Part shown: positions 829-18,022 of the stretch, piece by piece
Numbering within the stretch: position 1 is the first letter of the stretch
Layout of the letters: every line of letters begins with the position of its first letter
Source: a virus
Lineage: Duplodnaviria; Heunggongvirae; Uroviricota; Caudoviricetes
Virus record (IMG/VR): IMGVR_UViG_2563366928_000010
Direction: 5' to 3' (one strand)
DNA length: 21,036 nt
Translations under genes and position numbers: made by a program
The notes under the pieces: generated by a model
Told to the model about the DNA's origin: nothing
The model's database searches: none
Seen by the model: the letters and a program-made list of their open reading frames with translations, nothing else

Positions 829-2789
829 TCATGCCGCAGCATCCGCGTTGTTCACTTCCACCTTCACACTGTCAATCAGCAGCGTATATGTCGCCGCCTT
901 TGATATGCCTGTCAGTTGCAGTTTGTCCGCCGCCCCTGATGCCGGAGATTTCACCAGTGTGAACGGCGTCCCCCGTTTCTCATCCAGTACCGGCGTCACC
1001 TGAATGCTGTTGTTTCCGGCAAACTCAAAAGCCAGTGTGTGCCATCCGTTATCAAAGACCCCGAACGTATCCAGCTTCGCATTCGGCTTCTTGTGGTGCA
1101 TCGCGTTCAGGTTCGTCGCATCCGTCTGCAGGAAGAAGGACATCAGCATGTCGTTGCCTTCCTCTGCCAGCGTCACTCCCTCCGGCAGGGACGACAACTG
1201 CCAGTAAATGCCCAGGGCAAACTGATTCGGCACCAGTGAACCCGGCAACTTAAACCGTACGCTCACACGTCCCCCCTTCTTCAGTAACTCCACTCCCTGT
1301 CCGGCTGCATCATGCTCCAGAAACCAGATGTGGTTTTCCGGTTTATTCAGTTGCAGGGCCTTACCTCCCGTAGCCCCCGCATCACTGACCACCGCTTCAG
1401 CAATGTTTTTGTTAACATTGTCTCCGCTCGCCGGTTTGTGATAATAGCGCCAGCCCTGTGATGCCAGGTCTTCGCCGGACGCCAGCAGACTCATCAGGGT
1501 TCGGTTACTGACCGGGGCTTCCGGCTCTCTCTCCGTACCTTCACCGGAAGGTCCGGTGGGCTTCACCGTATCAGGCTGTTTTCCGGTAATGAATTCAGCG
1601 TTTCTCCCGGCATGCACAAGAATCGCCGTTGCCAGACGGTCGGAAATAATCCCACGACGTGCCCATGATCCAAAATGCGTTTTACGGTCAGCCGTCGTCC
1701 AGGTTTTGGCGTCCGTTCGACCACCGGCTACGTAATACCCAATATCCGCAACATCCGGATCTTCTGACGGCTCGTTGGTACCCACATTTCGCCCGTTTTC
1801 ATCCGTCATAAACGGCACAAAGAAGATTTTTTTTGCGGATTTCGTCTTGTATGCACCATACACCGCATCGTATTGCGAAGAATAAGTCTGCTTCCAGTAG
1901 TAGGTCGTGTCGCCACAAATCCAGGGAACTGATGACGGAGAGCCCCCGAGACACTGACCTCCGAATTCCGACAGGTCAGAACGATATTTTTCCACCATGG
2001 AATCAAACAGCCCCGGCTGAGTGGCGTATGCACCCTGTTTCAAATCAAACTCGCCCTGCATCCAGACCACTGCAAGCAGAATATTTTTAGGGTTGGCCTT
2101 CAGTGCGGCCTGAGTACGGGTAAGCAGGTCCTTGTACAGTGGCTTATCTACACCCCAGCGTGCCGAGGTCTCGCTTGCGCCGGTGGATTCGCTGAAGGTA
2201 CCTTCATCGCCCGCCAAAAATGCAGAACCACCACGGCAGCACGGAACCAGAAGAATACCGGCATTCGCCGGAATAAACGGCAACAATTTCTTCGCGATAT
2301 GTAATCCCTGCCCCACGCATCCATACTGAGCTGCGCTGGCTTTCGGGTGTGAAAACTTACTCAAATCCTGAACATCATGCAGGCAGTGGTCCGCAGGAAT
2401 AATGTCATTGTAGTTACAGGACGCACCACCCGGCGTGACAGTGCTGCGACGCGCCAGCTGTTTAATACGCGGGTCCGGACGGTCATATGTCTCCGGCAGC
2501 GGAAGCCCTTCACCATACGCCATACCGTTTGACTGCCCGGCCAGGGCAACAACAAAGTAATACTCCGGGTTGCTGGTGGTGCTGATAACTGCGCCTTCTC
2601 CATCCGACGGCTTCACCACCACAGGTGTGGTGACATCACCTTCCGCCGCAATGGCCTGCATCAGGGTATAAGGCGTGATGGCCACCGGACTGCAAATGGC
2701 TGCCACCCCTCCTTCAGTTTTTGTGTCAGTCGTTTCGCAAGGTCTGACGGCGATGCCGCCCTGACCACGTCATAGTGTTTAAATGCCAT
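829..2789 (-). pseudogene. nanS-p: Prophage sialate O-acetylesterase NanS-p-like gene (SASA/SGNH esterase core), apparently disrupted by a single-base frameshift near codon 30
   Basis: Strong SD GGGAGG + ATG at 2789 gives MAFKHYDVVRAASPSDLAKRLTQKLKEGWQPF then stops at 2661-2663 after 42 codons; 625-codon ORF 829..2706 continues in another frame with no ATG (only GTG with adjacent SD); GQSNG esterase motif in the long frame. Confidence 0.6.
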
Positions 2790-2982
2790 GAATCCTCCCG
2801 GCCGGGATAATATTGTGAGTAAAATAAGGAGCGGGCTGAAGTCCGGAAGTTACAGGACAATGGCAGAAGAGAGACGACAGCCCGCAATTCGAAAAAGACC
2901 GCGCAGTTGCGCAGAGTGATTACTATGGGGTATTATTCGTCAGCTGAAATATTACTTCACGTTTTATTGTTTATTCCTTGCC

Positions 2983-3011: not shown

Positions 3012-3387
3012 GTCCATAAGAAAGCCCCTCCGGAGAGGGGCTGGAGAGTGGCGCTATGTGCCATTGCATGGTGCCGGGTGCCTCCCGGTGAGTTCAGCCC
3101 GGTGACACTGAACCCGCGTCATTCTCGTTTTGATAATCAGAGATTATACCATCACCAGTCGCCCCTCCGCTCAGGGGGATTCACCATGCCGTTCTCTTTT
3201 AACAAATTCGCCGCTAACAGGACAACATTCCGCTTTCTGAGTTGTGAGGAATTTAACACTTCACACCTGTGTGCATTTTCTACAGGCTGCTCCCAGCACC
3301 ACAATACATCGCAGGCAACAGAAGCCAAATGCCCCACCACAGAAAAAACATGCAATTATGATTATTGTTTACTGCAAAGATGTAGAA

Positions 3388-3816
3388 TCACGGTTTAAAA
3401 TCCAGCACTCCATTGTGAAATACTTTATATACTTCCGGAGACGGCGGAACTGGTATATCAGCATGCTTCACCGCATTCATCGCTTCACGACATAAATCGG
3501 GGTCTCCACCTTCTCTTTTAACCTGTAGCAGAAGACCATTCGGGGCCATATACATTCTCAGTGAACACTCTTTTCCTGAATACTTACTCGCATCCTTTAA
3601 CTGTTCTTCTATGGCTTTCCTGACCTGAATGGCATACTGCCTGATTTCTTCACTGGCATCAGGGGTACGTTCCGATGAGCTCAAATTTTGCGACTTTATT
3701 AATTTATCTGAGTGATACAGAGAAGCATCATAATTATTTGTCGATACATCTTTTGTGCAGCCAGTTGTCAGACTGGCTAATATCAAAACAAGAACTGGTA
3801 CAGCACGGCAATACAT
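3388..3816 (-). CDS. Lipoprotein with TolA C-terminal (domain III)-like domain, 142 aa
   Basis: ATG at 3816 with GGAGA SD 8 nt upstream; signal peptide MYCRAVPVLVLILASLTTGC with lipobox; C-terminal half SKYSGKECSLRMYMAPNGLLLQVKREGGDPDLCREAMNAVKHADIPVPPSPEVYKVFHNGVLDFKP resembles recalled E. coli TolA C-terminus (...SYAGKTCTLRIKLAPDGMLLDIKPEGGDPALCQAAL...VYEVFKNAPLDFKP). Confidence 0.7.
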   Translation of the reverse strand: MYCRAVPVLVLILASLTTGCTKDVSTNNYDASLYHSDKLIKSQNLSSSERTPDASEEIRQYAIQVRKAIEEQLKDASKYSGKECSLRMYMAPNGLLLQVKREGGDPDLCREAMNAVKHADIPVPPSPEVYKVFHNGVLDFKP

Positions 3817-4094
3817 TTATCCATCTCCATATTAACAAGAACAATTATCTATAAAATATAGTAAATATGCGGGATCCGGGAGGACTTGTAACTATCATCT
3901 CCGGATCAGCATGTAGTTTTTATTTTTCCGGATGATATATGCCGCAATAATACCTCTGCATACAGATGCCTGCAAATATCTGCGAAGCATCCGGCGAGAA
4001 TAAACAAGGAAGTCTGAGGCTATCTTATATGATAGCCTGTTGCTCAAAAGACAATGATTCACTCATCAGAACCAACAACGCATAATGCAGATAA

Positions 4095-4171
4095 TGGACC
4101 GCCATCGAGGACTCGAACCCCGCGCAGCCAGCTTCGAAGGCTGGCGCTCTATCCCGATGAGCTAATGGCGG
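4095..4171 (-). tRNA. tRNA-Arg (anticodon UCG)
   Basis: 77 nt cloverleaf CCGCCAT..GCTC/GAGC D-stem..anticodon stem CCAGC/GCTGG with loop CTTCGAA..T-loop TTCGAGT..ATGGCGG-T-CCA, folded by hand. Confidence 0.75.
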
Positions 4172-4180
4172 TATGTGATA

Positions 4181-4256
4181 TGGTGGCCCTTGCTGGATTT
4201 GAACCAGCGACCTGGCGATTATGAGTCGCTCGCTCTCACCACTGAGCTAAAGGGCC
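4181..4256 (-). tRNA. tRNA with CAU anticodon, ileX/ileZ-like (tRNA-Ile2 lysidine type; would score as tRNA-Met in automated tools)
   Basis: GGCCCTTTAGCTCAGTGGTGAGAGCGAGCGACTCATAATCGCCAGGTCGCTGGTTCAAATCCAGCAAGGGCCACCA; closer to recalled E. coli ileX than to elongator tRNA-Met. Confidence 0.8.
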
Positions 4257-4296: not shown

Positions 4297-4555
4297 TCAT
4301 CCGTTCTGACTGACTAAATCCTGAACTTCCCGAACCGTCTGCTCAAAACGTTCAGTCTCCAGCTCAACGCCTGTAGCACGACGGCCCAGTGCCAGTGCAG
4401 CTTTAACTGTTGAACCTGACCCCATAAAAAAATCTGCAACCAGGTCACCCGGACGACTGCTTGCGCTGATTATCTGCTGCAGCATTTCTGCCGGTTTTTC
4501 GCACGGATGTTTCCCGGGATAGAACTGCACCGGTTTATGCGTCCAGACATCGGTA
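4297..4555 (-). pseudogene. C-terminal remnant of a beta-class N6A/N4C DNA methyltransferase, ending at the IS1 boundary
   Basis: Translation ...HKPVQFYPGKHPCEKPAEMLQQIISASSRPGDLVADFFMGSGSTVKAALALGRRATGVELE carries motif-I-like FxGSGST and KP motif; reading frame upstream of IS1 hits a stop within about 50 codons and shows no catalytic DPPY region. Confidence 0.5.
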
Positions 4556-4570
4556 GGTAATGACTCCAAC

Positions 4571-5074
4571 TTATTGATAGTGTTTTATGTTCAGATAATG
4601 CCCGATGACTTTGTCATGCAGCTCCACCGATTTTGAGAACGACAGCAACTTCCGTCCCAGCCGTGCCAGGTGCTGCCTCAGATTCAGGTTATGCCGCTCA
4701 ATTCGCTGCGTATATCGCTTGCTGATTACGTGCAGCTTTCCCTTCAGGCGGGATTCATACAGCGGCCAGCCATCCGTCATCCATATCACCACGTCAAAGG
4801 GTGACAGCAGGCTCATAAGACGCCCCAGCGTCGCCATAGTGCGTTCACCGAATACGTGCGCAACAACCGTCTTCCGGAGACTGTCATACGCGTAAAACAG
4901 CCAGCGCTGGCGCGATTTAGCCCCGACATAGCCCCACTGTTCGTCCATTTCCGCGCAGACGATGACGTCACTGCCCGGCTGTATGCGCGAGGTTACCGAC
5001 TGCGGCCTGAGTTTTTTAAGTGACGTAAAATCGTGTTGAGGCCAACGCCCATAATGCGGGCAGTTGCCCGGCAT
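4571..5074 (-). CDS. insB: IS1 transposase InsB (expressed as InsAB' by frameshift)
   Basis: 167 aa ORF overlapping insA 3' end in the -1 frame, as in IS1. Confidence 0.85.
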
Positions 5075-5268
5075 CCAACGCCATTCATGGCCATATCAAT
5101 GATTTTCTGGTGCGTACCGGGTTGAGAAGCGGTGTAAGTGAACTGCAGTTGCCATGTTTTACGGCAGTGAGAGCAGAGATAGCGCTGATGTCCGGCGGTG
5201 CTTTTGCCGTTACGCACCACCCCGTCAGTAGCTGAACAGGAGGGACAGCTGATAGAAACAGAAGCCAC
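4993..5268 (-). CDS. insA: IS1 transposase InsA
   Basis: 91 aa [43 protein letters not shown]... Zn-finger InsA. Confidence 0.9.
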
Positions 5269-5408
5269 TGGAGCACCTCAAAAACACCATCATACACTAA
5301 ATCAGTAAGTTGGCAGCATCACCCATCGGTATACGGCACCTGCGCCGTCACGCCAAAATACCGCCGCAGTCGGCATTCACAACCACCAGCGCATTTAACG
5401 TTCAGGCA

Positions 5409-5433
5409 CAAAAAAACCCGCTCGACGGCGGGT
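5409..5433 (-). terminator. Putative intrinsic terminator (minus-strand sense)
   Basis: Hairpin ACCCGC-tcgacg-GCGGGT (5416-5433) preceded on plus strand by A7 (a U-run after the hairpin on the minus strand). Confidence 0.45.
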
Positions 5434-5479
5434 TTAAGCTGTGTGACGAAGTAACCACTCTTAACAGCATAACCAATTT

Positions 5480-5861
5480 TTTACGTACGTAAACTACTAA
5501 ATGATATTTGTGAGAATGCCACCGAGTGTTCAAAACACCACCACAAATACATAAGAAAACTTCAACAAATAACCAATGAATAATTTCCGATGTTATTTTT
5601 AGGTTGTTTAAATTAAGCCAAAAAATTATAGGGCGCTTATAAATAAGTGTCATTAATATAAATCAGCTAATAGATTTATTTTTGTTCAAACAAGAGCCAT
5701 GAATAGGATTAGATAGAAAAGGTTCAGATAAAAATAGAGATCTACGTCACAAATTAAATGAGAAACTAAAACTTACATCTTGAAATAATCACATTGATTA
5801 GATGAATATTTATCGCGCAGTGACATCATTTTTTTATAATAGTTCAAAAAAAGGGCGTACA
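5480..5861 (+). promoter_or_regulatory. AT-rich upstream regulatory region of the porin gene (exact promoter not resolved)
   Basis: About 380 bp strongly AT-rich non-coding DNA immediately upstream of the porin start, typical of enterobacterial porin control regions. Confidence 0.35.
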
Positions 5862-6944
5862 ATGAAAAAATTAACAGTGGCAATTTCTGCTGTAGCTGCA
5901 TCAGTACTGATGGCGATGTCTGCTCAGGCAGCTGAAATTTATAATAAAGACAGTAACAAGCTGGATCTATACGGGAAAGTTAATGCCAAGCACTACTTCT
6001 CCTCTAATGATGCAGATGATGGTGATACTACTTATGCTCGTCTTGGCTTCAAAGGTGAAACCCAAATCAACGATCAACTGACTGGTTTCGGTCAGTGGGA
6101 ATATGACTTCAAAGGCAACCGTGCTGAATCTCAAGGTTCTTCCAAAGACAAAACCCGTCTTGCATTTGCAGGCCTGAAATTTGGTGATTACGGCTCAATC
6201 GATTACGGTCGTAACTACGGTGTAGCATACGACATCGGTGCGTGGACTGACGTTCTGCCAGAATTCGGTGGTGATACCTGGACCCAGACAGATGTGTTCA
6301 TGACTGGCCGCACTACTGGTGTTGCAACTTATCGTAACAACGACTTCTTTGGTCTGGTCGATGGCCTGAACTTTGCTGCTCAGTATCAGGGTAAAAATGA
6401 CCGCACTGACGTAACTGAAGCCAATGGTGATGGTTTCGGTTTCTCCACTACTTATGAGTATGAAGGATTCGGCGTGGGTGCAACCTATGCTAAATCAGAT
6501 CGCACTGACGGTCAGGTCGCCTATGGTAAGAGCAAATTCAATGCCTCCGGCAAAAATGCGGAAGTATGGGCTGCAGGCCTGAAATATGATGCGAACAATA
6601 TCTATCTGGCTACCACATATTCTGAAACTCAGAATATGACCGTTTTTGGTAATAACCATATTGCAAACAAAGCACAAAACTTTGAAGCAGTAGCACAATA
6701 TCAGTTTGACTTCGGTCTGCGCCCATCTGTTGCTTACCTTCAGTCAAAAGGTAAAGACCTTGGTGTTCATGGTGACCGAGACTTAGTCAAGTATGTCGAT
6801 GTCGGTGCTACTTACTACTTTAATAAAAACATGTCCACTTTTGTTGATTACAAAATCAACTTAATTGACGATAGTAAGTTTACCAAAACAGCTGGTATTG
6901 ATACCGACGACATCGTCGCTGTAGGTCTGGTTTATCAGTTCTAA
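5862..6944 (+). CDS. nmpC: Outer-membrane general porin, NmpC/Lc/OmpC family (phage-borne)
   Basis: ATG at 5862 with AAGGG SD; signal peptide [23 protein letters not shown]; [16 protein letters not shown]... and C-terminal ...VGLVYQF beta-barrel terminus; matches recalled NmpC/Lc porins. Confidence 0.85.
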
Positions 6945-7132: not shown

Positions 7133-7516
7133 TCAATTAGAATTATTAGCAACGATATCCATATCTAACCGGATATCTAATGCCATTAACATCCCTTCAA
7201 TTATGCCCTCAGCCTTCTGTAACCTTTTCCCGATATAACCATCCGAGCAGCAATGCTTACTTGCCAGTGACATGAATGTCATACCACATACATAATAATC
7301 TACTAATAAATCGTGTAAATCGCTGTTGTTCTTTTTCAGACGGGCCATGCACCCGCAAATGATCATCGCGTCATCGTCACAACATTGCGGGCGAGATTTT
7401 ACTTTTGAAGGAATTAATCCCTTAAAACCGGCAGCAATGGACGACCAGGTCACATCCTCATGATTATTTGCCGCCCATGCGCCCCAGCGTTCAAGAACCA
7501 TCTGAATATCACGCAT
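7133..7516 (-). CDS. Q: Late-gene antiterminator Q (phage 82 / DLP12 QuuD type)
   Basis: 127 aa from ATG at 7516: [60 protein letters not shown]... with Cys-rich Zn-binding region; matches recalled DLP12 YbcQ/QuuD. Confidence 0.8.
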
Positions 7517-8373
7517 TATTCGCACTCACCAACCAGATTGAGAATGACCGCTGCACCGTCGTCTTCCATGCATTCACCCTTACCACTTGCCAGAAACCAG
7601 CGGCACACCTCCACGGCTTCAGCGCGTGTCACCGGTTTGATGGTTGCCAGCAATTTTTCAAGGTAGCGCTCGCGGTCATATACCGATTCGTGATGCTCAG
7701 AGTAACCAAACTCATCGCCCTGTTCTTTAGTTGCAGTGTGGCGAACACTGTAGAGCCAGTCCCAGTAAACGAACTCGCGAACAACATCAGACAGCGTATA
7801 AGGCTCAGGCAGCACATCGCGATATCCATCAACAAATGCCCGACGCTGTTCATCAATTTCGTTCATGCGGCTGCCGCCAATGCTTCCGGCTTTTTTCTCT
7901 GCCGCAGTCCAGCCCCAGAGATGATCGTTGATAAATTTCTGGGAAGACCTGATGACCCGCTCTGCTTCCACATCTTCGAGCGCTGCTTCATAGCTACCAA
8001 ACGTAGCCCTGACTGATGCCGCTTTTTTGATGTTCTCCCGGGCGTTCCTGATAACCTGCGCAGGGTTATCCATGCCGATGATGCCGAACGCAACTTGGAA
8101 AGGTTCGTAACCATTCGCCAGCAGATAACGCGAATAGCGTTCCTGAGCCTCTTTTGGGGAAATTTTAATTTTCACCAGCGCAGCCTCAGCAGCATCCAGA
8201 TGTGCGGGTTCGTTCAGACGGATAACCTCCAGCACCCAAAGATAAGCATCAGTCTGCTTATGCCCGGTGATTCTCCGTTGCTCTGGCAGGGGCTTGATGT
8301 TTGCGAGGGCGGAGCTGTACGCTGCCGTCGGGATGGTGAATAGTGCTTTATGTTCGTTATTATCAGTACGCAT
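7516..8373 (-). CDS. Hypothetical phage protein, 285 aa, translationally coupled between primase and Q
   Basis: ATG at 8373 overlaps primase stop; stop overlaps Q start (TAATG); no family recognised by eye. Confidence 0.6.
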
Positions 8374-14781: not shown

Positions 14782-14967
14782 GCGGATCCACCGGCAGGCA
14801 TTGCAGGTCCTGTTGTTGTACCGATGCCGACGGATATTTCCGCATCGGATACAGCGCACCGGATATCTCAGTCTGAAGGTTAACCGTCGCTGGCGGCTGT
14901 TATCGAAAGACGACGGCCGGAACTGGGAAGTAATGAGTCATGAACGTTATTCGGGAGAAATAAAGAA

Positions 14968-15360
14968 ATGATCGACAACCGCACCGCCAGCGCCATTGAC
15001 CAGGCATTACAGAAACATGATACACCCGTCGGCCCGTTATTTTTTGTAACACGCCACGGAAGAACAAAAAAATGCCTCAGCCGAAAAACGGCAATTCGTT
15101 ACCTGGCATTCTTTATGACCACCCGCGCTTTTGAACGTTCAGGATTCCGACAACGCTATCCTGACAAGCGTTTTATCTTCAACAGGAATGAGATATGGAA
15201 ACGTGGAGAATCAACCACAGAGTATACCCGCGCACACCAGCGAACAATCAGACGACTGCGCAGACTCATCGCCAGGAAACAGTATACAGAAAAATGGTTC
15301 AGAAAATATGACACATGGAGCGCCGGATATTACGAACTGATGGCAACAAAACCATTCTGA
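14968..15360 (+). CDS. Hypothetical basic protein (130 aa)
   Basis: GGGAGA SD 9 nt upstream; Arg/Lys-rich C-terminal region (RTIRRLRRLIARKQYTEKWFRKY). Confidence 0.55.
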   Translation: MIDNRTASAIDQALQKHDTPVGPLFFVTRHGRTKKCLSRKTAIRYLAFFMTTRAFERSGFRQRYPDKRFIFNRNEIWKRGESTTEYTRAHQRTIRRLRRLIARKQYTEKWFRKYDTWSAGYYELMATKPF

Positions 15361-15420
15361 CGTAAACGAAATTAACCATGACGCAATTAAATAAGGCAAG
15401 CCGAATACATCAGGAGGACC

Positions 15421-15609
15421 ATGAACATTTATTTCAGAATAGTTATATCACTGGCAATTATCACATGTATTTACGGATTAATCGTTCCGGCCCTCATATC
15501 AATGAAGGATACGGTAGCAGTGATTTCTGGCTTTGCTCTGGCGTGTCTGACCCCGCCCTGCATTTATGCCATTTATAAGGGTCTTTCTTTTTCTAAGGAT
15601 AAAAGATGA
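15421..15609 (+). CDS. Small membrane protein with two predicted TM helices (62 aa)
   Basis: AGGAGG SD; hydrophobic segments RIVISLAIITCIYGLIVPALI and AVISGFALACLTPPCIYAIY; stop overlaps start of downstream SPFH gene (ATGA). Confidence 0.55.
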   Translation: MNIYFRIVISLAIITCIYGLIVPALISMKDTVAVISGFALACLTPPCIYAIYKGLSFSKDKR

Positions 15610-16433
15610 AAAAATTACTTTTTGCTTTAGCCCTTGTTCTGCCGACCATTGGCCTTGTCGGTTGCGATCGCGTTGAGCCTGGTAATGTGGGCATCAAAGT
15701 AAACAAACTGGGCGACGATAAAGGCGTCGGTGAAGTGGTCGGTGTTGGGCGCTACTGGACGGGATGGAACACTGAGGTTTACATCTTCCCGACCTTTAAG
15801 CAGATGAAGACCTACGATGATCCATTCAGTTTCCAGATGAGTGACGGTACAACCATCGGCTATCACATCGGCGTGGCCTACAAAGTTGATCCATCCAAAG
15901 TTACCACAGTCTTTCAGACCTACCGCAAAGGCGTGGACGACATTACCGACACCGACCTGCGCCAGAAGATAGCCGACGCACTCAACCGACTGGCCAGCAA
16001 AATGACCACCGACAAATTTATCGACGGCGGCAAGTCTGAGCTGCTGGATGCAGCTCTTAAAGACATTCAGGAAGAAATGACGCCCATCGGTATTCAGGTA
16101 ATGAGCCTCTCATATGTGGGTAAGCCGGAGTACCCGCCTACTGTTATCGACAGCATTAATGCCAAAGTCACGGCGAACCAGAAAACCCTGCAACGCGAGC
16201 AGGAAGTAAAACAGCGCGAAGCGGAAGCCAACATGTTGCGCGCGGAAGCTGCCGGACAGGCAGATGTGATTCGCACAAAAGCCCAGGCCGAAGCCGATGC
16301 TATTCGTTTACGCGGTGAAGCTCTGCGCCAGAACCCCGGTGTTATGGAGCTGGAAGCCATCAACAAGTGGAACGGTACACTGCCGCAATACATGACCAGC
16401 GGTGCCAACACACCATTTATTCAGGTTAAGTAA
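15606..16433 (+). CDS. SPFH/Band-7 (HflK/C, stomatin-like) domain lipoprotein, 275 aa
   Basis: AAGGA SD; lipoprotein signal MKKLLFALALVLPTIGLVGC with Asp at +2; SPFH core and Ala/Glu/Arg-rich coiled-coil tail QREQEVKQREAEANMLRAEAAGQADVIRTKAQAEADAIRLRGEAL. Confidence 0.8.
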   Translation: MKKLLFALALVLPTIGLVGCDRVEPGNVGIKVNKLGDDKGVGEVVGVGRYWTGWNTEVYIFPTFKQMKTYDDPFSFQMSDGTTIGYHIGVAYKVDPSKVTTVFQTYRKGVDDITDTDLRQKIADALNRLASKMTTDKFIDGGKSELLDAALKDIQEEMTPIGIQVMSLSYVGKPEYPPTVIDSINAKVTANQKTLQREQEVKQREAEANMLRAEAAGQADVIRTKAQAEADAIRLRGEALRQNPGVMELEAINKWNGTLPQYMTSGANTPFIQVK

Positions 16434-16476
16434 TACATATGCCCGGTATTACACGCCGGGCTGTCTGGAGATAAAA

Positions 16477-17226
16477 ATGAATATTGTAACCATCAACAAC
16501 AAACAGTTTCCGGTAATCGAATATCGCGGTCAGCGTGTTGTGACATTTGCAATAATTGATGACGTCCACCAGCGCCCGGAAGGTACCGCCCGTGCTGCGT
16601 TTAACCGCAACCGTTCTCACTTTATCGAAGGGGTGGATTTTCTTGAAATGACTGCGGACGTAATACGTACGGAGTCACTTTCTGATGCCTTTGCCGCGCG
16701 AACTGCCAAAGGGATCATTCTTTTCGAGTCTGGTTACCTGATGTTGACGAAGCCTTTTAACGATGCTCTTGCATGGCAGGTTCAGCGCGAACTGGTTAAC
16801 AGCTATTTCCGAACTCACGCGCCGCTGACGGAAATGGAGATGATCGCTGCAATGGCCGCCGATGCCGTTCGCCAGCAGAAGCGCCTGAGTCATGTTGAAG
16901 AGAAGATCGAAACGGTCACCAAAGCTGTGGAGAACATCAAACGCGGCACAATGCGCACCGGATATGTCGGTTACCGCCAGGTGGTAGCCAAAAGCGGAAT
17001 GAGTGACGCCAAGTGTCGGAATCTGGTCAACGCCTACCACATCCCTACCGACACGCACGAATTTATGACTCCGGACGGTCTGTTGTCTCGCAGGGCTGTC
17101 GTCGAGCTTGAGACATTTATGGCGGCGTTCCACCAAATGATGTCAGAGGCTGAACCACGCGGCACACGCTGGTATCACCCGAAGATGGGGCTTTTCCAGG
17201 TAATCGGATGGGAGGATAAAGCATGA
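16477..17226 (+). CDS. ORF6N-domain-like protein (putative antirepressor/DNA-binding regulator), 249 aa
   Basis: GGAGAT SD + ATG 16477; N-terminus PVIEYRGQRVVTF...NRNRSHFIEGVDFLEMT...LFESGYLMLTKPFNDALAWQVQRELVNSYFR resembles recalled ORF6N consensus. Confidence 0.6.
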   Translation: MNIVTINNKQFPVIEYRGQRVVTFAIIDDVHQRPEGTARAAFNRNRSHFIEGVDFLEMTADVIRTESLSDAFAARTAKGIILFESGYLMLTKPFNDALAWQVQRELVNSYFRTHAPLTEMEMIAAMAADAVRQQKRLSHVEEKIETVTKAVENIKRGTMRTGYVGYRQVVAKSGMSDAKCRNLVNAYHIPTDTHEFMTPDGLLSRRAVVELETFMAAFHQMMSEAEPRGTRWYHPKMGLFQVIGWEDKA

Positions 17227-17792
17227 TCATCCAGTCAAAACTTATTCGCGCCGCTCTGGTGTGCGCTGCTAAAAACGACGTTCGTTATTACCTGAACGGT
17301 CTTCACATCACGCCAAAACATATTGAGGCAACCAATGGTTTCGTAGCACTGCGCATGACTCACGGCATCCGGACGAAGAAAAACATCATTGTCCAGTTCG
17401 AAGGTGGCGTCCCGGCCAAAGCCGAAACGACAGAGCTGATTTTAAGTAAAGAGCCGATCGCTGTTCATCGCGACCAGTTTCAGCGCCGGCTGTCCATTAC
17501 CGGCATTAAATTAGTGGACGGTTGTTTTCCGGATTTGGAACGCATCATTTCGAAAAAATTTGACCTCTGTACACACCCGGTGATCCAGGCGGGTTACCTG
17601 AGTTATCCAGAGAAGATGTTTGGTCGTGAGCGTAAATTTATTCCCGTCCAGTTACGTCCCTCCGGTGACGGGCAAGCGGTCAGAATTCAGTTTGATTCCA
17701 TCATCAACTCAATGTATGGCAATCCTGAATTTGTTGTGATGCCTTGTCGTGATCATGGCGATTTCAACGTGGCTCAGGAGCATCCGGAATGA
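17223..17792 (+). CDS. Truncated DNA polymerase III beta sliding-clamp (DnaN)-like protein, 189 aa
   Basis: Strong SD GGAGGA 6 nt upstream; DVRYYLNGLHI...ATNGFVALRM, KLVDGCFPD and C-terminal FVVMPCR align to recalled E. coli DnaN (DVRYYLNGMLFE...ATDGHRLAV, KLVDGRFPDY, YVVMPMRL). Confidence 0.7.
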   Translation: MIIQSKLIRAALVCAAKNDVRYYLNGLHITPKHIEATNGFVALRMTHGIRTKKNIIVQFEGGVPAKAETTELILSKEPIAVHRDQFQRRLSITGIKLVDGCFPDLERIISKKFDLCTHPVIQAGYLSYPEKMFGRERKFIPVQLRPSGDGQAVRIQFDSIINSMYGNPEFVVMPCRDHGDFNVAQEHPE

Positions 17793-18022
17793 AAATCGAA
17801 TACCAGGACTACGGAGCCGTAGCGAACATCGTGATCACCTGCACCGTGTTCGAATTTCGTAAACATAACCGGGTGGTGGATGCTGCATTGCTTTGCACGC
17901 CGGACGTTATTGCAACTCACAGTGGTGTGTTTTTCATGAAGTCGGTTTTATCCGGTAAAACCCGCGATATGTTGCGGGCATATAAAACAGCACAGGGAGA
18001 GGTCGGGCGTGAGCGAGATTGA
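17789..18022 (+). CDS. Hypothetical protein (77 aa)
   Basis: ATGA overlap with upstream stop; no family recognised. Confidence 0.5.
   Translation: MKIEYQDYGAVANIVITCTVFEFRKHNRVVDAALLCTPDVIATHSGVFFMKSVLSGKTRDMLRAYKTAQGEVGRERD

What the first reader, a model, noticed from the sequence alone, without database searches (positions are those of the whole stretch)
3388..3816. Lipoprotein mimicking the TolA C-terminal domain in the late-operon moron position
In the slot between the late tRNA genes and the esterase (where Stx phages carry stx), this prophage encodes a lipoprotein (default outer-membrane sorting, Thr at +2) whose C-terminal roughly 70 residues closely parallel TolA domain III, including the C-terminal ...VY.VF.N..LDFKP. 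TolA-III is the docking site for Pal/TolB and is hijacked by filamentous phage g3p and group A colicins. A secreted TolA-III mimic could titrate those ligands (exclusion of Tol-dependent phages or colicins) or perturb Tol-Pal to aid lysis or vesiculation.
Basis: partly seen in the sequence, partly recalled or inferred. Interest (0 to 1): 0.6.

Follow-up and report, generated by a model that had tools for sequence, protein, structure and literature searches.

The report
Prophage lipoprotein copy of TolA's tip
A lambdoid prophage carries, in the slot where Shiga-toxin phages carry stx, a small outer-membrane lipoprotein that is a stand-alone copy of the TolA C-terminal domain; it most likely acts as a periplasmic decoy for colicins and filamentous phages that enter through TolA, but this has not been tested.

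Summary
Window 3388..3816 (-) is a 142-aa ORF. Residues 1-20 form a lipoprotein signal peptide (lipobox LTTG|C, Thr at +2). Residues 21-53 are a disordered linker. Residues 54-142 align without gaps to E. coli TolA 333-421 (48/89 identical, E about 1e-26). The AlphaFold model lies 0.6-0.7 A from solved TolAIII. The gene sits in an 809-bp, low-GC cassette (3265..4073). The cassette lies between the late-region tRNAs and the NanS-p esterase, where phi24B carries stx2 and phi296 is empty.

It is not a real TolA, although PGAP names it so: it has no membrane anchor, no domain II and no tol operon. It belongs to a large, unstudied family of stand-alone TolAIII lipoproteins. Members occur in lambdoid prophages, F-like plasmid leading regions, Klebsiella IncF plasmids and colicin, klebicin and microcin plasmids. 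Some are paired with TonB C-terminal-domain proteins or an Exc2 exclusion lipoprotein. A few are chromosomal.

The best reading (about 0.45) is an outer-membrane-tethered decoy that intercepts TolA-binding colicins and filamentous-phage g3p. Rivals are Tol-Pal sabotage late in lysis or for vesiculation, and conjugative entry exclusion. I found no paper describing it in the open-access library searched. Function is inferred only.

The parts
3388..3816 (-). Complete ORF (142 aa plus stop) for a stand-alone TolA-domain-III lipoprotein. PGAP names it 'tolA: cell envelope integrity protein TolA' (WP_000271630.1).
3757..3816 (-). Lipoprotein signal peptide, residues 1-20: n-region with Arg4, h-region AVPVLVLILASL, lipobox L-T-T-G-C. 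Cys20 (3759..3757) is the predicted lipidated residue. Thr21 at +2 predicts Lol sorting to the outer membrane.
   Evidence: PROSITE-type pattern met. Cys20 is invariant in 57 family members from different contexts. None of 52 lipobox-bearing relatives has Asp at +2. Hydropathy. Lipidation itself was not tested.
3658..3756 (-). Linker, residues 21-53 (33 aa, rich in Ser/Asp/Thr/Asn), predicted disordered. It would tether the domain to the inner face of the outer membrane.
   Evidence: pLDDT below 50 in both AlphaFold runs. Composition. No similarity to TolA domain II.
3391..3657 (-). TolA C-terminal (domain III) fold, residues 54-142: a1 54-70, short helix 76-79, b1 84-90, b2 96-104, a2 106-118, a3 127-133, b3 135-140. 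The disulfide pair Cys84/Cys109 corresponds to TolA C363/C388.
   Evidence: AlphaFold pLDDT 91-97. Foldseek TM 0.96 and rmsd 0.6 A to 2x9a_B, 0.7 A to 1tol.
3265..4073 (-). Moron cassette, 809 bp, GC 0.41 against 0.51-0.55 in the flanks: 257 bp upstream region, the ORF, then 123 bp. In stx-negative phage phi296 this stretch is absent, and a 126-bp segment with tRNA-Arg(TCT) takes its place.
3825..3828 (-). Shine-Dalgarno GGAG, 8 nt before the ATG.
   Evidence: Read from the sequence.
3947..3976 (-). Weak sigma-70-like site (TTTGCA-18-TATTAT, 9/12) inside the cassette. This is not convincing evidence of an own promoter.
   Evidence: 3 sites found against 2.6 expected from shuffles. The 68%-identity allele of mEp460 has a much better site, TTGAGC-18-TATAAT (10/12), 30 bp upstream of its start.
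4095..4256 (-). Late-region phage tRNA genes immediately upstream: tRNA-Ile2 (anticodon CAT, 4181..4256, called Met by ARAGORN) and tRNA-Arg(TCG) (4095..4171).
3012..3218 (-). STnc100-family sRNA element ending in a terminator-like hairpin (3042..3023). It forms the downstream flank of the cassette and is shared with the empty site.
829..2813 (-). SASA-family carbohydrate esterase (NanS-p type), the next late gene downstream. The start is approximate: the longest ORF in the window is 829..2706, while PGAP aa in the 99.7%-identical prophage.
7133..7525 (-). Antiterminator QuuD. The late transcript it licenses would read through the porin gene (antisense), IS1, the tRNAs and this gene towards the holin.
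   Evidence: Read-through is inferred from the gene order and from lambdoid biology.

Best explanation
The gene encodes an outer-membrane lipoprotein whose only folded part is a TolA domain III. A 33-residue flexible linker hangs the domain on the periplasmic face of the outer membrane. It cannot transduce force, because it lacks TolA's membrane anchor and its periplasm-spanning helix.

I propose it works as a decoy. Group A colicins thread their translocation domains through porins, and filamentous-phage g3p-N1 arrives through the retracting pilus. Both must dock by beta-strand augmentation on TolAIII. The tethered copy sits exactly where these ligands emerge and captures them before they reach the real, energised TolA. 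The lysogen would then be tolerant to Tol-dependent colicins and resistant to Ff-type phages.

The endogenous TolA-TolB contact is weak (tens of micromolar), whereas colicin and g3p contacts are about 1-10 micromolar. A modest amount of decoy could therefore block invaders at little cost to Tol-Pal function.

Shown here: the fold, the lipobox, the cassette, the slot, the family and its contexts. Inferred: export and lipidation, outer-membrane location, ligand binding, the phenotype, and whether the gene is expressed in the lysogen as well as from the late transcript.
For: (1) The domain is a faithful TolAIII. It is 54% identical to E. coli TolA, and the model lies 0.6-0.7 A from TolAIII as seen in its g3p complexes.

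(2) The strand that g3p, colicin N and TolB augment (b3, TolA F412-P421) is the best-kept segment. Seven of 10 residues are identical, including D418 and K420, whose backbone amides are required for g3p and ColN binding (PMC4339652). D418 is kept in 75% of stand-alone lipoproteins against 28% of the full-length TolAs sampled.

(3) K351-F352-Y353 is conserved in full-length TolA (0.76/0.87/0.70) but relaxed in the stand-alone lipoproteins (0.27/0.42/0.25), and reads QLK here. A double mutation that includes this Tyr weakens TolB binding (PMC2707214). That fits a protein kept for invader binding and not for TolB work.

(4) The architecture is conserved. Cys20 and the disulfide pair are invariant in 57 relatives. 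At least 49 of 77 short homologue clusters have a lipobox, against 4 of 58 long TolAs. None has Asp at +2.

(5) The contexts point to conflict:
- a ColE1-like plasmid encodes a pore-forming colicin with a ColA-type TolA-binding N-domain, and a TolAIII lipoprotein lies in one cluster with an Exc2 exclusion lipoprotein;
- Klebsiella klebicin plasmids carry a TolAIII lipoprotein overlapping a periplasmic TonB C-terminal-domain gene;
- a Salmonella relative sits beside a microcin V-type cluster;
- F-like plasmids, including pO157, carry one in the leading region after ssb-psiB-psiA-hok;
- a prophage with a 100% identical copy also encodes a TonB C-terminal-domain lipoprotein.

(6) The same slot in other prophages holds two diverged paralogues in tandem, which looks like diversification against different ligands.

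(7) Selection is purifying: dN/dS is 0.36-0.40 against the 68% allele.

(8) There is precedent for the mechanism:
- engineered periplasmic TolAIII makes E. coli leaky (PMC6195910) and, from my own knowledge of Levengood-Freyermuth et al. 1993, colicin-tolerant;
- the mirror experiment, periplasmic g3p-N1, gives colicin A resistance and a 4-log drop in phage uptake (PMC10424213).

(9) Affinities: TolB about 40 uM; ColN-T and g3p-N1 about 1-12 uM.
Against: - There are no functional data of any kind, and no expression data for this gene.
- The gene lies in the Q-dependent late operon. If it is made only late in lytic growth, a protective decoy is of little use to a doomed cell.
- Evidence for an own promoter is weak for this allele: 9/12, not above shuffles.
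- Part of the colicin A site is changed. K368, the partner of the essential ColA Tyr58, is Tyr here, and P380 is Arg (PMC3365938). Some colicins may therefore not be bound.
- Strand-augmentation sites are backbone-mediated, so sequence conservation there may only reflect the fold.
- Some relatives are ordinary chromosomal genes: Klebsiella quasipneumoniae between metabolic operons and Serratia near icd. The family is not strictly tied to mobile elements or to conflict.
- No PADLOC defence model matches.
- A TolB-binding decoy would carry an envelope cost.
Confidence: 0.45

Rival explanations
1. Late-stage sabotage of Tol-Pal. The gene is made in bulk from the Q-dependent late transcript. The free TolAIII domain titrates the N-terminus of TolB (and CpoB), uncouples Pal mobilisation and loosens the outer membrane. 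That would help lysis, release of progeny and of co-encoded goods such as the esterase, or vesiculation.
For: - The position is in the late operon, directly upstream of esterase-holin-lysozyme-spanin.
- In 58 related loci the gene pair sits about 1.2 kb before the holin.
- Over-produced periplasmic TolAIII makes cells leak periplasmic proteins (PMC6195910).
- tol mutants hypervesiculate (PMC11032300).
- The b3 strand used by TolB is conserved.
- PHROGs labels the companion TonB-domain lipoprotein 'Rz-like spanin'.
Against: - These prophages already have holin, endolysin and spanin genes. Once peptidoglycan is degraded, a Pal-PG tether should matter little (inference).
- Close relatives sit in plasmid leading regions and on colicin plasmids that have their own lysis gene, where envelope damage would be costly.
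- The TolB-linked residues K351-Y353 are not conserved.
- The mEp460 allele has a near-consensus own promoter, which suggests expression outside lysis.
- The PHROG label is probably positional, because the protein has a TonB_C domain and no C-terminal transmembrane segment.
Confidence: 0.2
2. An entry-exclusion or envelope-gating factor against incoming conjugative or mobilised DNA, or other envelope-crossing machines. It would act together with lipoproteins such as Exc2, and not against colicins or phages.
For: - It is adjacent to an Exc2-family lipoprotein, downstream of an Exc1-like gene, on ColE1-like plasmids.
- The type-2 paralogue lies in the leading region of F-like plasmids.
- In Klebsiella IncF plasmids it is next to a DsbC/TraF-like thioredoxin-fold protein.
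Against: - I know of no role of TolA in conjugative DNA entry (own knowledge).
- ColE1's own Exc1 is not TolA-like.
- A prophage has no obvious interest in blocking conjugation.
- pO157 and many carrier plasmids are non-conjugative.
Confidence: 0.07
3. A housekeeping-type modulator of Tol-Pal or of another TolAIII partner, for example tuning TolB-Pal turnover, CpoB-PBP1B or vesicle output in the lysogen. Mobile elements would have picked it up as a fitness gene and not as a defence.
For: - Chromosomal, non-mobile-looking copies exist in Klebsiella and Serratia.
- The short-protein family is large and diverse: 77 short clusters at 50% identity.
- The review of the field notes that regulated vesicle production through modulated TolB interactions is conceivable (PMC7391070).
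Against: - Family members recur in accessory and conflict-type settings: bacteriocin plasmids, moron slots, leading regions.
- E. coli alleles are present or absent across strains: 897 of 5426 genomes carry one.
- Tandem diverged paralogues occur.
Confidence: 0.13
4. A decaying fragment of a captured tolA gene with no function.
For: - PGAP annotates it as TolA although it is one third of the length.
- Some alleles carry a C-terminal frameshift that removes b3.
Against: - It has acquired a lipoprotein signal peptide and linker, conserved across three diverged N-terminal classes.
- dN/dS is 0.36-0.40.
- The reading frame is intact in 886 E. coli genomes at 80% coverage or more and in 80 viral contigs.
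- A Shine-Dalgarno is present.
- The disulfide cysteines are invariant.
Confidence: 0.05

Closest known systems
E. coli TolA domain III (residues 333-421; PDB 1S62, 3QDP, 1TOL, 2X9A)
   Same: The fold is the same (a-b-b-a-a-b) and so is the disulfide. Identity is 54% with no gaps. The C-terminal b3 strand, to which TolB, g3p-N1 and colicin N add a strand, is almost unchanged.
   Different: There is no N-terminal transmembrane anchor with the SHLS motif and no long helical domain II. The gene is not in the tolQRA-tolB-pal operon. The domain is anchored to the opposite membrane by lipid, so it cannot be energised by TolQR. K368, P380 and K351-Y353 are changed.
Engineered periplasmic TolAIII (signal peptide fused to domain III; Levengood-Freyermuth 1993, Wan and Baneyx 1998)
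   Same: A free TolAIII in the periplasm competes with native TolA. Reported effects are leakage of periplasmic proteins (PMC6195910) and, from my own knowledge, colicin tolerance. This is the laboratory prototype of the proposed mechanism.
   Different: The construct is artificial, soluble and over-produced. The gene here is natural, lipid-anchored, diverged and carried on a mobile element.
Ff phage g3p-mediated superinfection exclusion (g3p-N1 sequesters TolA)
   Same: It blocks the same TolA-dependent import step and gives combined resistance to colicins and filamentous phage (PMC10424213).
   Different: It is the mirror image. There the invader's ligand occupies the host's TolA. Here a copy of TolA would occupy the invader's ligand.
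Cor (phi80, N15, mEp phages) and Llp (T5) outer-membrane lipoproteins
   Same: These are small phage-encoded outer-membrane lipoproteins that protect the lysogen or infected cell from phages and colicins using one import route (own knowledge).
   Different: They inactivate the surface receptor FhuA. They are not homologues of a host energy-transducer domain, and there is no sequence or fold relation.
ColE1 Exc2 lipoprotein, and TraT-type exclusion lipoproteins
   Same: They are small plasmid-borne envelope lipoproteins named for exclusion. A TolAIII lipoprotein lies immediately after an Exc2 homologue on ColE1-like colicin plasmids.
   Different: There is no homology. Exc2 has no Pfam domain, and its function concerns plasmid entry.
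Stx and other morons of the Q-tRNA-holin slot of lambdoid phages
   Same: The insertion point and cassette-like structure are the same, the GC content is low, and rare AUA/AGA/AGG codons lie next to phage tRNA genes.
   Different: The cargo is an envelope lipoprotein, not a secreted toxin.

Membership tests
TolA, cell envelope integrity protein (full length; NCBIfam NF007065 / TIGR02794) | Whole-protein score above the curated equivalog cut-off. | tested here: inconclusive
   NF007065 scores 104.6 bits against a cut-off of 213 (fails). TIGR02794 scores 74.2 against 59.45 (passes). Both match only profile positions about 266-387, that is domain III. The TIGR02794 pass explains the PGAP name.
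TolA, cell envelope integrity protein (full length) | N-terminal inner-membrane anchor (domain I, SHLS motif) that couples to TolQ-TolR. | tested here: not met
   The N-terminus is a 19-residue cleavable lipoprotein signal peptide, MYCRAVPVLVLILASLTTG|C. There is no His/Ser motif and no other hydrophobic segment.
TolA, cell envelope integrity protein (full length) | Long Ala/Lys/Glu-rich helical domain II that spans the periplasm. | tested here: not met
   Only 33 residues lie between Cys20 and the domain. They are Ser/Asp/Thr/Asn-rich and predicted disordered.
TolA, cell envelope integrity protein (full length) | Encoded in the tolQ-tolR-tolA-tolB-pal cluster. | tested here: not met
   The neighbours are phage tRNAs, an sRNA element, the NanS-p esterase and lysis genes.
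TolA C-terminal domain (Pfam PF06519) | Score above the gathering threshold, and the TolAIII fold with its conserved disulfide. | tested here: met
   81.9 bits against a cut-off of 25. Foldseek TM 0.96 and rmsd 0.6 A to 2x9a_B. Cys84/Cys109 align to C363/C388.
Bacterial lipoprotein (Lgt/LspA substrate), outer-membrane sorted | Lipobox ending in Cys after a positively charged n-region and an uncharged h-region, with a non-Asp residue at +2. | tested here: met
   The sequence satisfies the PROSITE PS51257 pattern. Thr is at +2. The Cys is invariant in 57 relatives, and 0 of 52 relatives have Asp at +2.
Bacterial lipoprotein (Lgt/LspA substrate), outer-membrane sorted | Actual acylation, globomycin-sensitive processing and outer-membrane fractionation. 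| not testable with these tools
   This needs labelling and fractionation experiments.
Phage moron | A discrete insertion between conserved genes, absent from close relatives, with deviant base composition. | tested here: met
   The empty site is in phi296, stx2 occupies the same site in phi24B, the boundaries are 3264/3265 and 4073/4074, and GC is 0.41 against 0.51-0.55.
Phage moron | Own promoter and terminator allowing expression from the repressed prophage. | tested here: inconclusive
   There is only a 9/12 promoter-like site, not above shuffled controls, and no clear terminator inside the cassette. The related mEp460 allele has a 10/12 site. No transcript data are available.
Superinfection-exclusion / colicin-tolerance factor | Reduced sensitivity of cells that express it to defined phages or colicins. 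| not testable with these tools
   The evidence is only contextual and structural.
Known anti-phage defence systems (PADLOC-DB) | Match to a model of a described defence protein. | tested here: not met
   There are no hits at E<=0.01 for this protein, its type-2 paralogue or the TonB-domain lipoprotein. The PHROGs family phrog_5772 is 'unknown function'.

The most novel reading that the evidence does not exclude
Prophages, F-like plasmids and bacteriocin plasmids of Enterobacteriaceae deploy lipid-anchored or periplasmic copies of the C-terminal domains of the two envelope energy transducers, TolA and TonB. These copies act as periplasmic co-receptor decoys. That would be a general, previously unrecognised kind of immunity, blocking whole classes of colicins and Tol- or Ton-dependent phages at the import step. 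The family would diversify into paralogues (types 1 and 2) in an arms race with invader ligands.
Probability: 0.35. Interest if true: 0.78.

Novelty: new variant of a known kind. Interest (0 to 1): 0.62.

Why it matters
If the decoy reading is right, a sixth to a quarter of sequenced E. coli carry a cheap, broad-spectrum shield against Tol-dependent colicins and filamentous phages that nobody has characterised. Type 1 is in 897 and type 2 in 1269 of 5426 complete genomes. More than a thousand plasmids in Klebsiella, E. coli and Shigella carry a relative.

It would help explain strain-to-strain colicin tolerance. It would add a new mechanism, a periplasmic co-receptor decoy, to the catalogue of mobile-element defences. 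It would bear on colicin- and phage-based therapeutics aimed at these species. It would also give the Tol-Pal field a natural separation-of-function variant of TolAIII.

It matters for annotation too. Thousands of records call these 140-residue lipoproteins 'cell envelope integrity protein TolA', which they are not.

If instead the protein sabotages Tol-Pal late in infection, it would be a new accessory to phage lysis or vesicle-mediated release in the slot that carries Shiga toxin.

Tried and rejected
1. Expression evidence. A paper says a CP-933O 'TolA'-type gene (EDL933_2012) rises 32-fold with ciprofloxacin. Its supplement lists that locus as a tail fibre protein, so I discarded it.

2. 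I suspected ColE1 Exc1 might be the TolA-like protein. It is not: it is a cytoplasmic-looking, coiled-coil protein with no TolA domain.

3. An own promoter for this allele is not supported beyond chance.

4. The first AlphaFold run used 11 close sequences and gave only pLDDT 59. I replaced it with a 57-sequence run.

A narrower alignment found only 3 loci, so I took taxonomic breadth from the protein searches instead.

6. Ten literature searches found no description of a phage- or plasmid-encoded TolAIII lipoprotein. The library holds open-access papers only, so this is absence of evidence.

7. The 1993 paper on periplasmic TolAIII could not be read. I cite it from memory and through PMC6195910.

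8. PADLOC gave no match.

9. A tmRNA, tRNA or other RNA explanation for the region is excluded. The only RNA hits are the two tRNAs and STnc100, all outside the ORF.

10. I rejected the non-functional tolA fragment idea on selection and architecture.
Full report
**1. The observation**

Window 3388..3816 on the minus strand is an intact 142-codon ORF with an ATG start. A GGAG Shine-Dalgarno lies 8 nt upstream.

Three independent searches put its C-terminal part in the TolA C-terminal domain family:
- Pfam PF06519: E=3.8e-23, 81.9 bits against a gathering score of 25.
- NCBIfam TolA models match only their last ~100-120 positions (~297-387 and ~266-362).
- Solved E. coli TolAIII chains (1S62, 3QDP, 2X9A, 1TOL and the recent full-length cryo-EM entries): E about 1e-26.

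Residues 54-142 align to TolA 333-421 without a gap, with 48 of 89 positions identical. Both cysteines of the TolAIII disulfide are kept.

A first AlphaFold run on a shallow alignment was weak. A second run, on 57 family members, gave pLDDT 91-97 for residues 54-142. Its topology is a1-b1-b2-a2-a3-b3, and residues 1-50 had low confidence. That model superposes on TolAIII from the IF1 and M13 g3p complexes at 0.6-0.7 A over 88-89 residues, with TM 0.96 to 2x9a_B.

The N-terminus MYCRAVPVLVLILASLTTG|C-TKD meets the PROSITE lipobox rule, with Thr at +2.

**2. Where it sits**

The window is the left part of a lambdoid prophage integrated beside mlrA. The minus-strand order is: int, xis, early genes, CI-like repressor, replication genes, QuuD antiterminator (7133..7525), a convergently oriented OmpC/NmpC-type porin gene (5802..6944), an IS1 inserted in a DNA methyltransferase gene, tRNA-Ile2(CAT) and tRNA-Arg(TCG) (4095..4256), the TolA-like gene, an STnc100-family sRNA element (3012..3218, 162 bits), and the SASA/NanS-p esterase. 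In a 99.7% identical prophage this is followed by DUF1378, DUF826, holin, lysozyme and spanin.

Comparison with annotated phages fixes the slot:
- In Stx2 phage phi24B the order is Q, pR', tRNAs, stx2AB, esterase.
- In the stx-negative relative phi296 the tRNAs are followed directly by the esterase upstream region.
- Homology between the window and phi296 stops at 4074 and resumes at 3264.

So an 809-bp cassette (3265..4073, GC 0.41 against 0.51-0.55 in the flanks) replaces 126 bp that hold a third tRNA in phi296.

Whether it has its own promoter is unclear. The only sigma-70-like site is 9/12 and no better than shuffled sequence. The 68%-identity allele of phage mEp460 has TTGAGC-18-TATAAT 30 bp before its start. 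Expression from the Q-dependent late transcript follows from the position but is inferred.

**3. It is not TolA**

RefSeq calls the gene 'tolA: cell envelope integrity protein TolA' in all listed genomes. The defining features of TolA are absent:
- no inner-membrane anchor;
- no domain II;
- no tol operon;
- it fails the stricter equivalog cut-off, 104.6 against 213 bits.

It is a domain-III-only protein, anchored by lipid to what should be the outer membrane.

**4. A family on mobile elements**

In complete E. coli genomes:
- Alleles with 80% or more nucleotide identity occur in 897 of 5426 genomes, almost all chromosomal.
- Eighty IMG/VR viral contigs carry the gene in the same late-region position.
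- The alleles fall into three N-terminal classes that all keep the Cys at position 20.
- dN/dS between the window allele and the mEp460 allele is 0.36-0.40, both in the domain and in the linker.

In the 58 contigs with the 68% allele, the gene is followed 150 bp later by a second, much more diverged TolAIII lipoprotein. This 'type 2' is 26% identical to type 1 and hits PF06519 at E=1.3e-14. It lies just before the holin.

Type 2 is 88% identical to a lipoprotein in the leading region (ssb, psiB, psiA, hok) of pO157 and other F-like plasmids. It occurs in 1269 of 5426 E. coli genomes, at 825 chromosomal and 525 plasmid places.

Further relatives, all with lipoboxes:
- A 146-aa protein between Q and holin of a Salmonella prophage.
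- A 144-aa protein next to a DsbC/TraF-like thioredoxin-fold protein on Klebsiella IncF plasmids.
- A 123-aa protein whose gene overlaps that of a periplasmic TonB C-terminal-domain protein, beside a tRNase klebicin and its immunity gene, on 10-kb Klebsiella plasmids.
- A 139-aa protein on a 6.9-kb ColE1-like plasmid. It follows an Exc1-like gene, a 48-codon ORF and an Exc2-family lipoprotein. The plasmid's pore-forming colicin has a ColA-type TolA-binding N-domain. This protein was indexed in 339 blocks of the assembly collection, and an Enterobacter variant in 153.
- A 128-aa protein beside a microcin V-type cluster in Salmonella.

The CE10 prophage carries a 100% identical copy of the window gene. 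It also encodes a TonB C-terminal-domain lipoprotein after its lysis genes, and that gene is present in 415 E. coli genomes.

An exhaustive HMMER search of 1.84 billion representatives found 330 relatives. Of these, 77 are short (100-170 aa), and at least 49 of the 77 have a lipobox, against 4 of 58 long TolAs.

Not all members are on mobile elements. Klebsiella quasipneumoniae and Serratia have chromosomal copies among ordinary genes.

In all, 1334 PLSDB records gave a tblastn match. A few of these are chromosome-sized records with the real tolA.

PHROGs files types 1 and 2 together as phrog_5772, 'unknown function'. PADLOC has nothing.

**5. What the sequence says about partners**

Numbering: TolA residue n corresponds to residue n-279 here.

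The g3p/ColN/TolB site:
- g3p-N1, colicin N and the TolB N-terminus add a strand to b3 of TolAIII.
- D418P or K420P abolishes g3p and ColN binding (PMC7391070; PMC4339652).
- b3 is the best conserved segment here, FHNGVLDFKP against FKNAPLDFKP, 7 of 10 identical with D418 and K420 kept.
- D418 is kept in 75% of stand-alone lipoproteins, against 28% of the full-length TolAs in the sample.

The colicin A site, on the other side of the sheet, is partly changed:
- Colicin A binds L375-P380, with cation-pi contacts to K368, K379 and K396. K368 pairs with Tyr58, the one essential ColA residue (PMC3365938).
- Here the strand is LLQVKR, K379 and K396 are kept, but K368 is Tyr and P380 is Arg.

The TolB-linked residues:
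- K351-F352-Y353 is conserved in full-length TolA but not in the lipoproteins, and reads QLK here.
- A TolA double mutant that includes this Tyr binds TolB about six-fold more weakly (PMC2707214).

These patterns are suggestive only. The TolA sample is not phylogenetically balanced, and strand augmentation depends mainly on backbone.

**6. Mechanism**

Established knowledge:
- TolA reaches the outer membrane from the inner membrane and uses TolQR and the proton motive force to pull on TolB.
- Group A colicins and Ff-type phages must engage TolAIII, directly or through TolB, to enter (PMC7391070).
- The TolAIII-TolB Kd is about 40 uM or weaker. ColN-T and g3p-N1 bind at about 1-12 uM.
- A signal-peptide-TolAIII construct makes E. 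coli release periplasmic proteins (PMC6195910). From my own knowledge (Levengood-Freyermuth et al. 1993; I could not read the paper) it also makes the cells colicin-tolerant.
- The converse construct, periplasmic g3p-N1, gives colicin A resistance and a 4-log drop in phage uptake (PMC10424213).

On that basis my best explanation is an outer-membrane-tethered, non-energised TolAIII. It captures TolA-binding epitopes as they emerge at the inner face of the outer membrane, and so gives colicin tolerance and filamentous-phage exclusion.

The family's contexts fit this better than a lysis role: bacteriocin plasmids, exclusion-gene clusters, F-like leading regions (F pili make cells Ff-sensitive), pairing with TonB-domain proteins, and tandem diverged paralogues. 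I put it at about 0.45.

The main rival, at about 0.2, is late-phase titration of TolB to loosen the outer membrane for lysis, cargo release or vesicles. The late-operon position and the leakiness of TolAIII over-producers support it. Against it stand the complete holin-endolysin-spanin set, the plasmid contexts, and the relaxed TolB-linked residues.

Lesser rivals are a Tol-Pal modulator of ordinary physiology (0.13, supported by the chromosomal homologues), conjugative entry exclusion (0.07) and a dead fragment (0.05, contradicted by selection and architecture).

**7. Known or new**

Ten full-text searches of the open-access and bioRxiv library found no paper describing a phage- or plasmid-encoded TolAIII lipoprotein or its function. 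One apparent lead was a mislabelled tail-fibre gene.

Databases annotate the gene automatically and misleadingly. The components are familiar: the TolAIII fold, phage outer-membrane exclusion lipoproteins such as Cor and Llp, and the dominant-negative effect of free TolAIII. The natural combination, and its spread across prophages and plasmids together with TonB-domain counterparts, appears undescribed.

I rate it a new variant of a known kind, of moderate to high interest. It is cheap to test with colicin spot assays and M13 plating.

Noticed in passing
window 3012..3218 (-): A full-length match to the STnc100 sRNA family (RF02076, 162 bits, E=1e-37). It ends in a terminator-like hairpin at 3042..3023 and lies between the TolA-like cassette and the esterase. 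In mEp460 the same element lies upstream of the TolA-like gene.
   Followed up: partly
window 4297..5268 (-): An IS1 element (insA/insB with programmed frameshift, 4571..5268) is inserted in a phage DNA methyltransferase gene, leaving a 90-codon C-terminal remnant (4297..4569). It lies on the path of the late transcript between Q and the tRNAs.
   Followed up: no
window 5802..6944 (+), with upstream 5400..5800: An OmpC/NmpC/Lc-type porin gene is convergent with the Q gene, so the late transcript would read it antisense. Its upstream region is extremely AT-rich (GC 0.25). A prophage porin next to a TolAIII lipoprotein may both bear on the porin-plus-TolA colicin entry route.
   Followed up: no
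window 4074..4094 compared with L088 1718..1794: The cassette takes the place of the third late-region tRNA, Arg(TCT), found in phi296. The ORF itself uses ATA for 4 of 6 Ile codons and AGA/AGG for 4 of 7 Arg codons, while tRNA-Ile2 (AUA reader) sits just upstream.
   Followed up: partly
L001 8580..8975 (mEp460) and 58 IMG/VR loci (L030-L087) at +579 from the type-1 gene: There is a second, diverged TolAIII lipoprotein ('type 2') in tandem, just before the holin. It is 88% identical to the leading-region protein of pO157 and other F-like plasmids, and is present in 1269 of 5426 complete E. coli genomes. The window's own allele class lacks this partner.
   Followed up: partly
L002 18600..18926 (E. 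coli CE10 prophage with an identical tolA-like gene): A 108-aa lipoprotein (LVMG|C) consists of a TonB C-terminal domain (PF03544, E=1e-14). It lies after the spanin gene, in the position where lambda has bor. It is found in 415 of 5426 E. coli genomes, all chromosomal. PHROGs labels its family 'Rz-like spanin', which looks like a positional mis-annotation.
   Followed up: partly
L006 2992..3725 (Klebsiella 10-kb ColRNAI plasmid): Overlapping genes encode a TolAIII lipoprotein and a periplasmic TonB C-terminal-domain protein. They are divergent from a colicin-like tRNase bacteriocin and its immunity gene. No lysis gene is annotated on the part seen.
   Followed up: partly
L096 1676..3434 (6.9-kb ColE1-like plasmid; also L093-L095, L104, L105): The cluster is an Exc1-like gene, a 48-codon ORF, an Exc2-family lipoprotein and a TolAIII lipoprotein. 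It lies opposite a 448-aa pore-forming colicin whose N-terminus resembles the TolA-binding domain of colicin A. ColE1 itself has exc1-exc2 but no TolAIII gene.
   Followed up: partly
protein clusters P0021-P0031, P0036: Several alleles of the 68% class carry a frameshift near codon 124. It replaces the a3-b3 end with ...LRRKYIKYFKMGCWILNPDIYCFVINGFGLGLF. These are either pseudogenes or assembly errors in homopolymer runs.
   Followed up: no
L097-L099 7001..7429 (Klebsiella quasipneumoniae chromosome); L091 6926..7363 (Serratia ureilytica): Stand-alone TolAIII lipoproteins also exist as single chromosomal genes among metabolic genes, with no phage or plasmid genes nearby. The family is therefore not confined to mobile elements.
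   Followed up: partly
window 14900..17800 (+), by annotation of the 99.7% identical prophage (L003): The early region encodes a ParE-like toxin, an SPFH-domain protein, an ORF6N-domain protein and a beta-clamp-domain protein. These are unusual accessory genes for a lambdoid early region.
   Followed up: no
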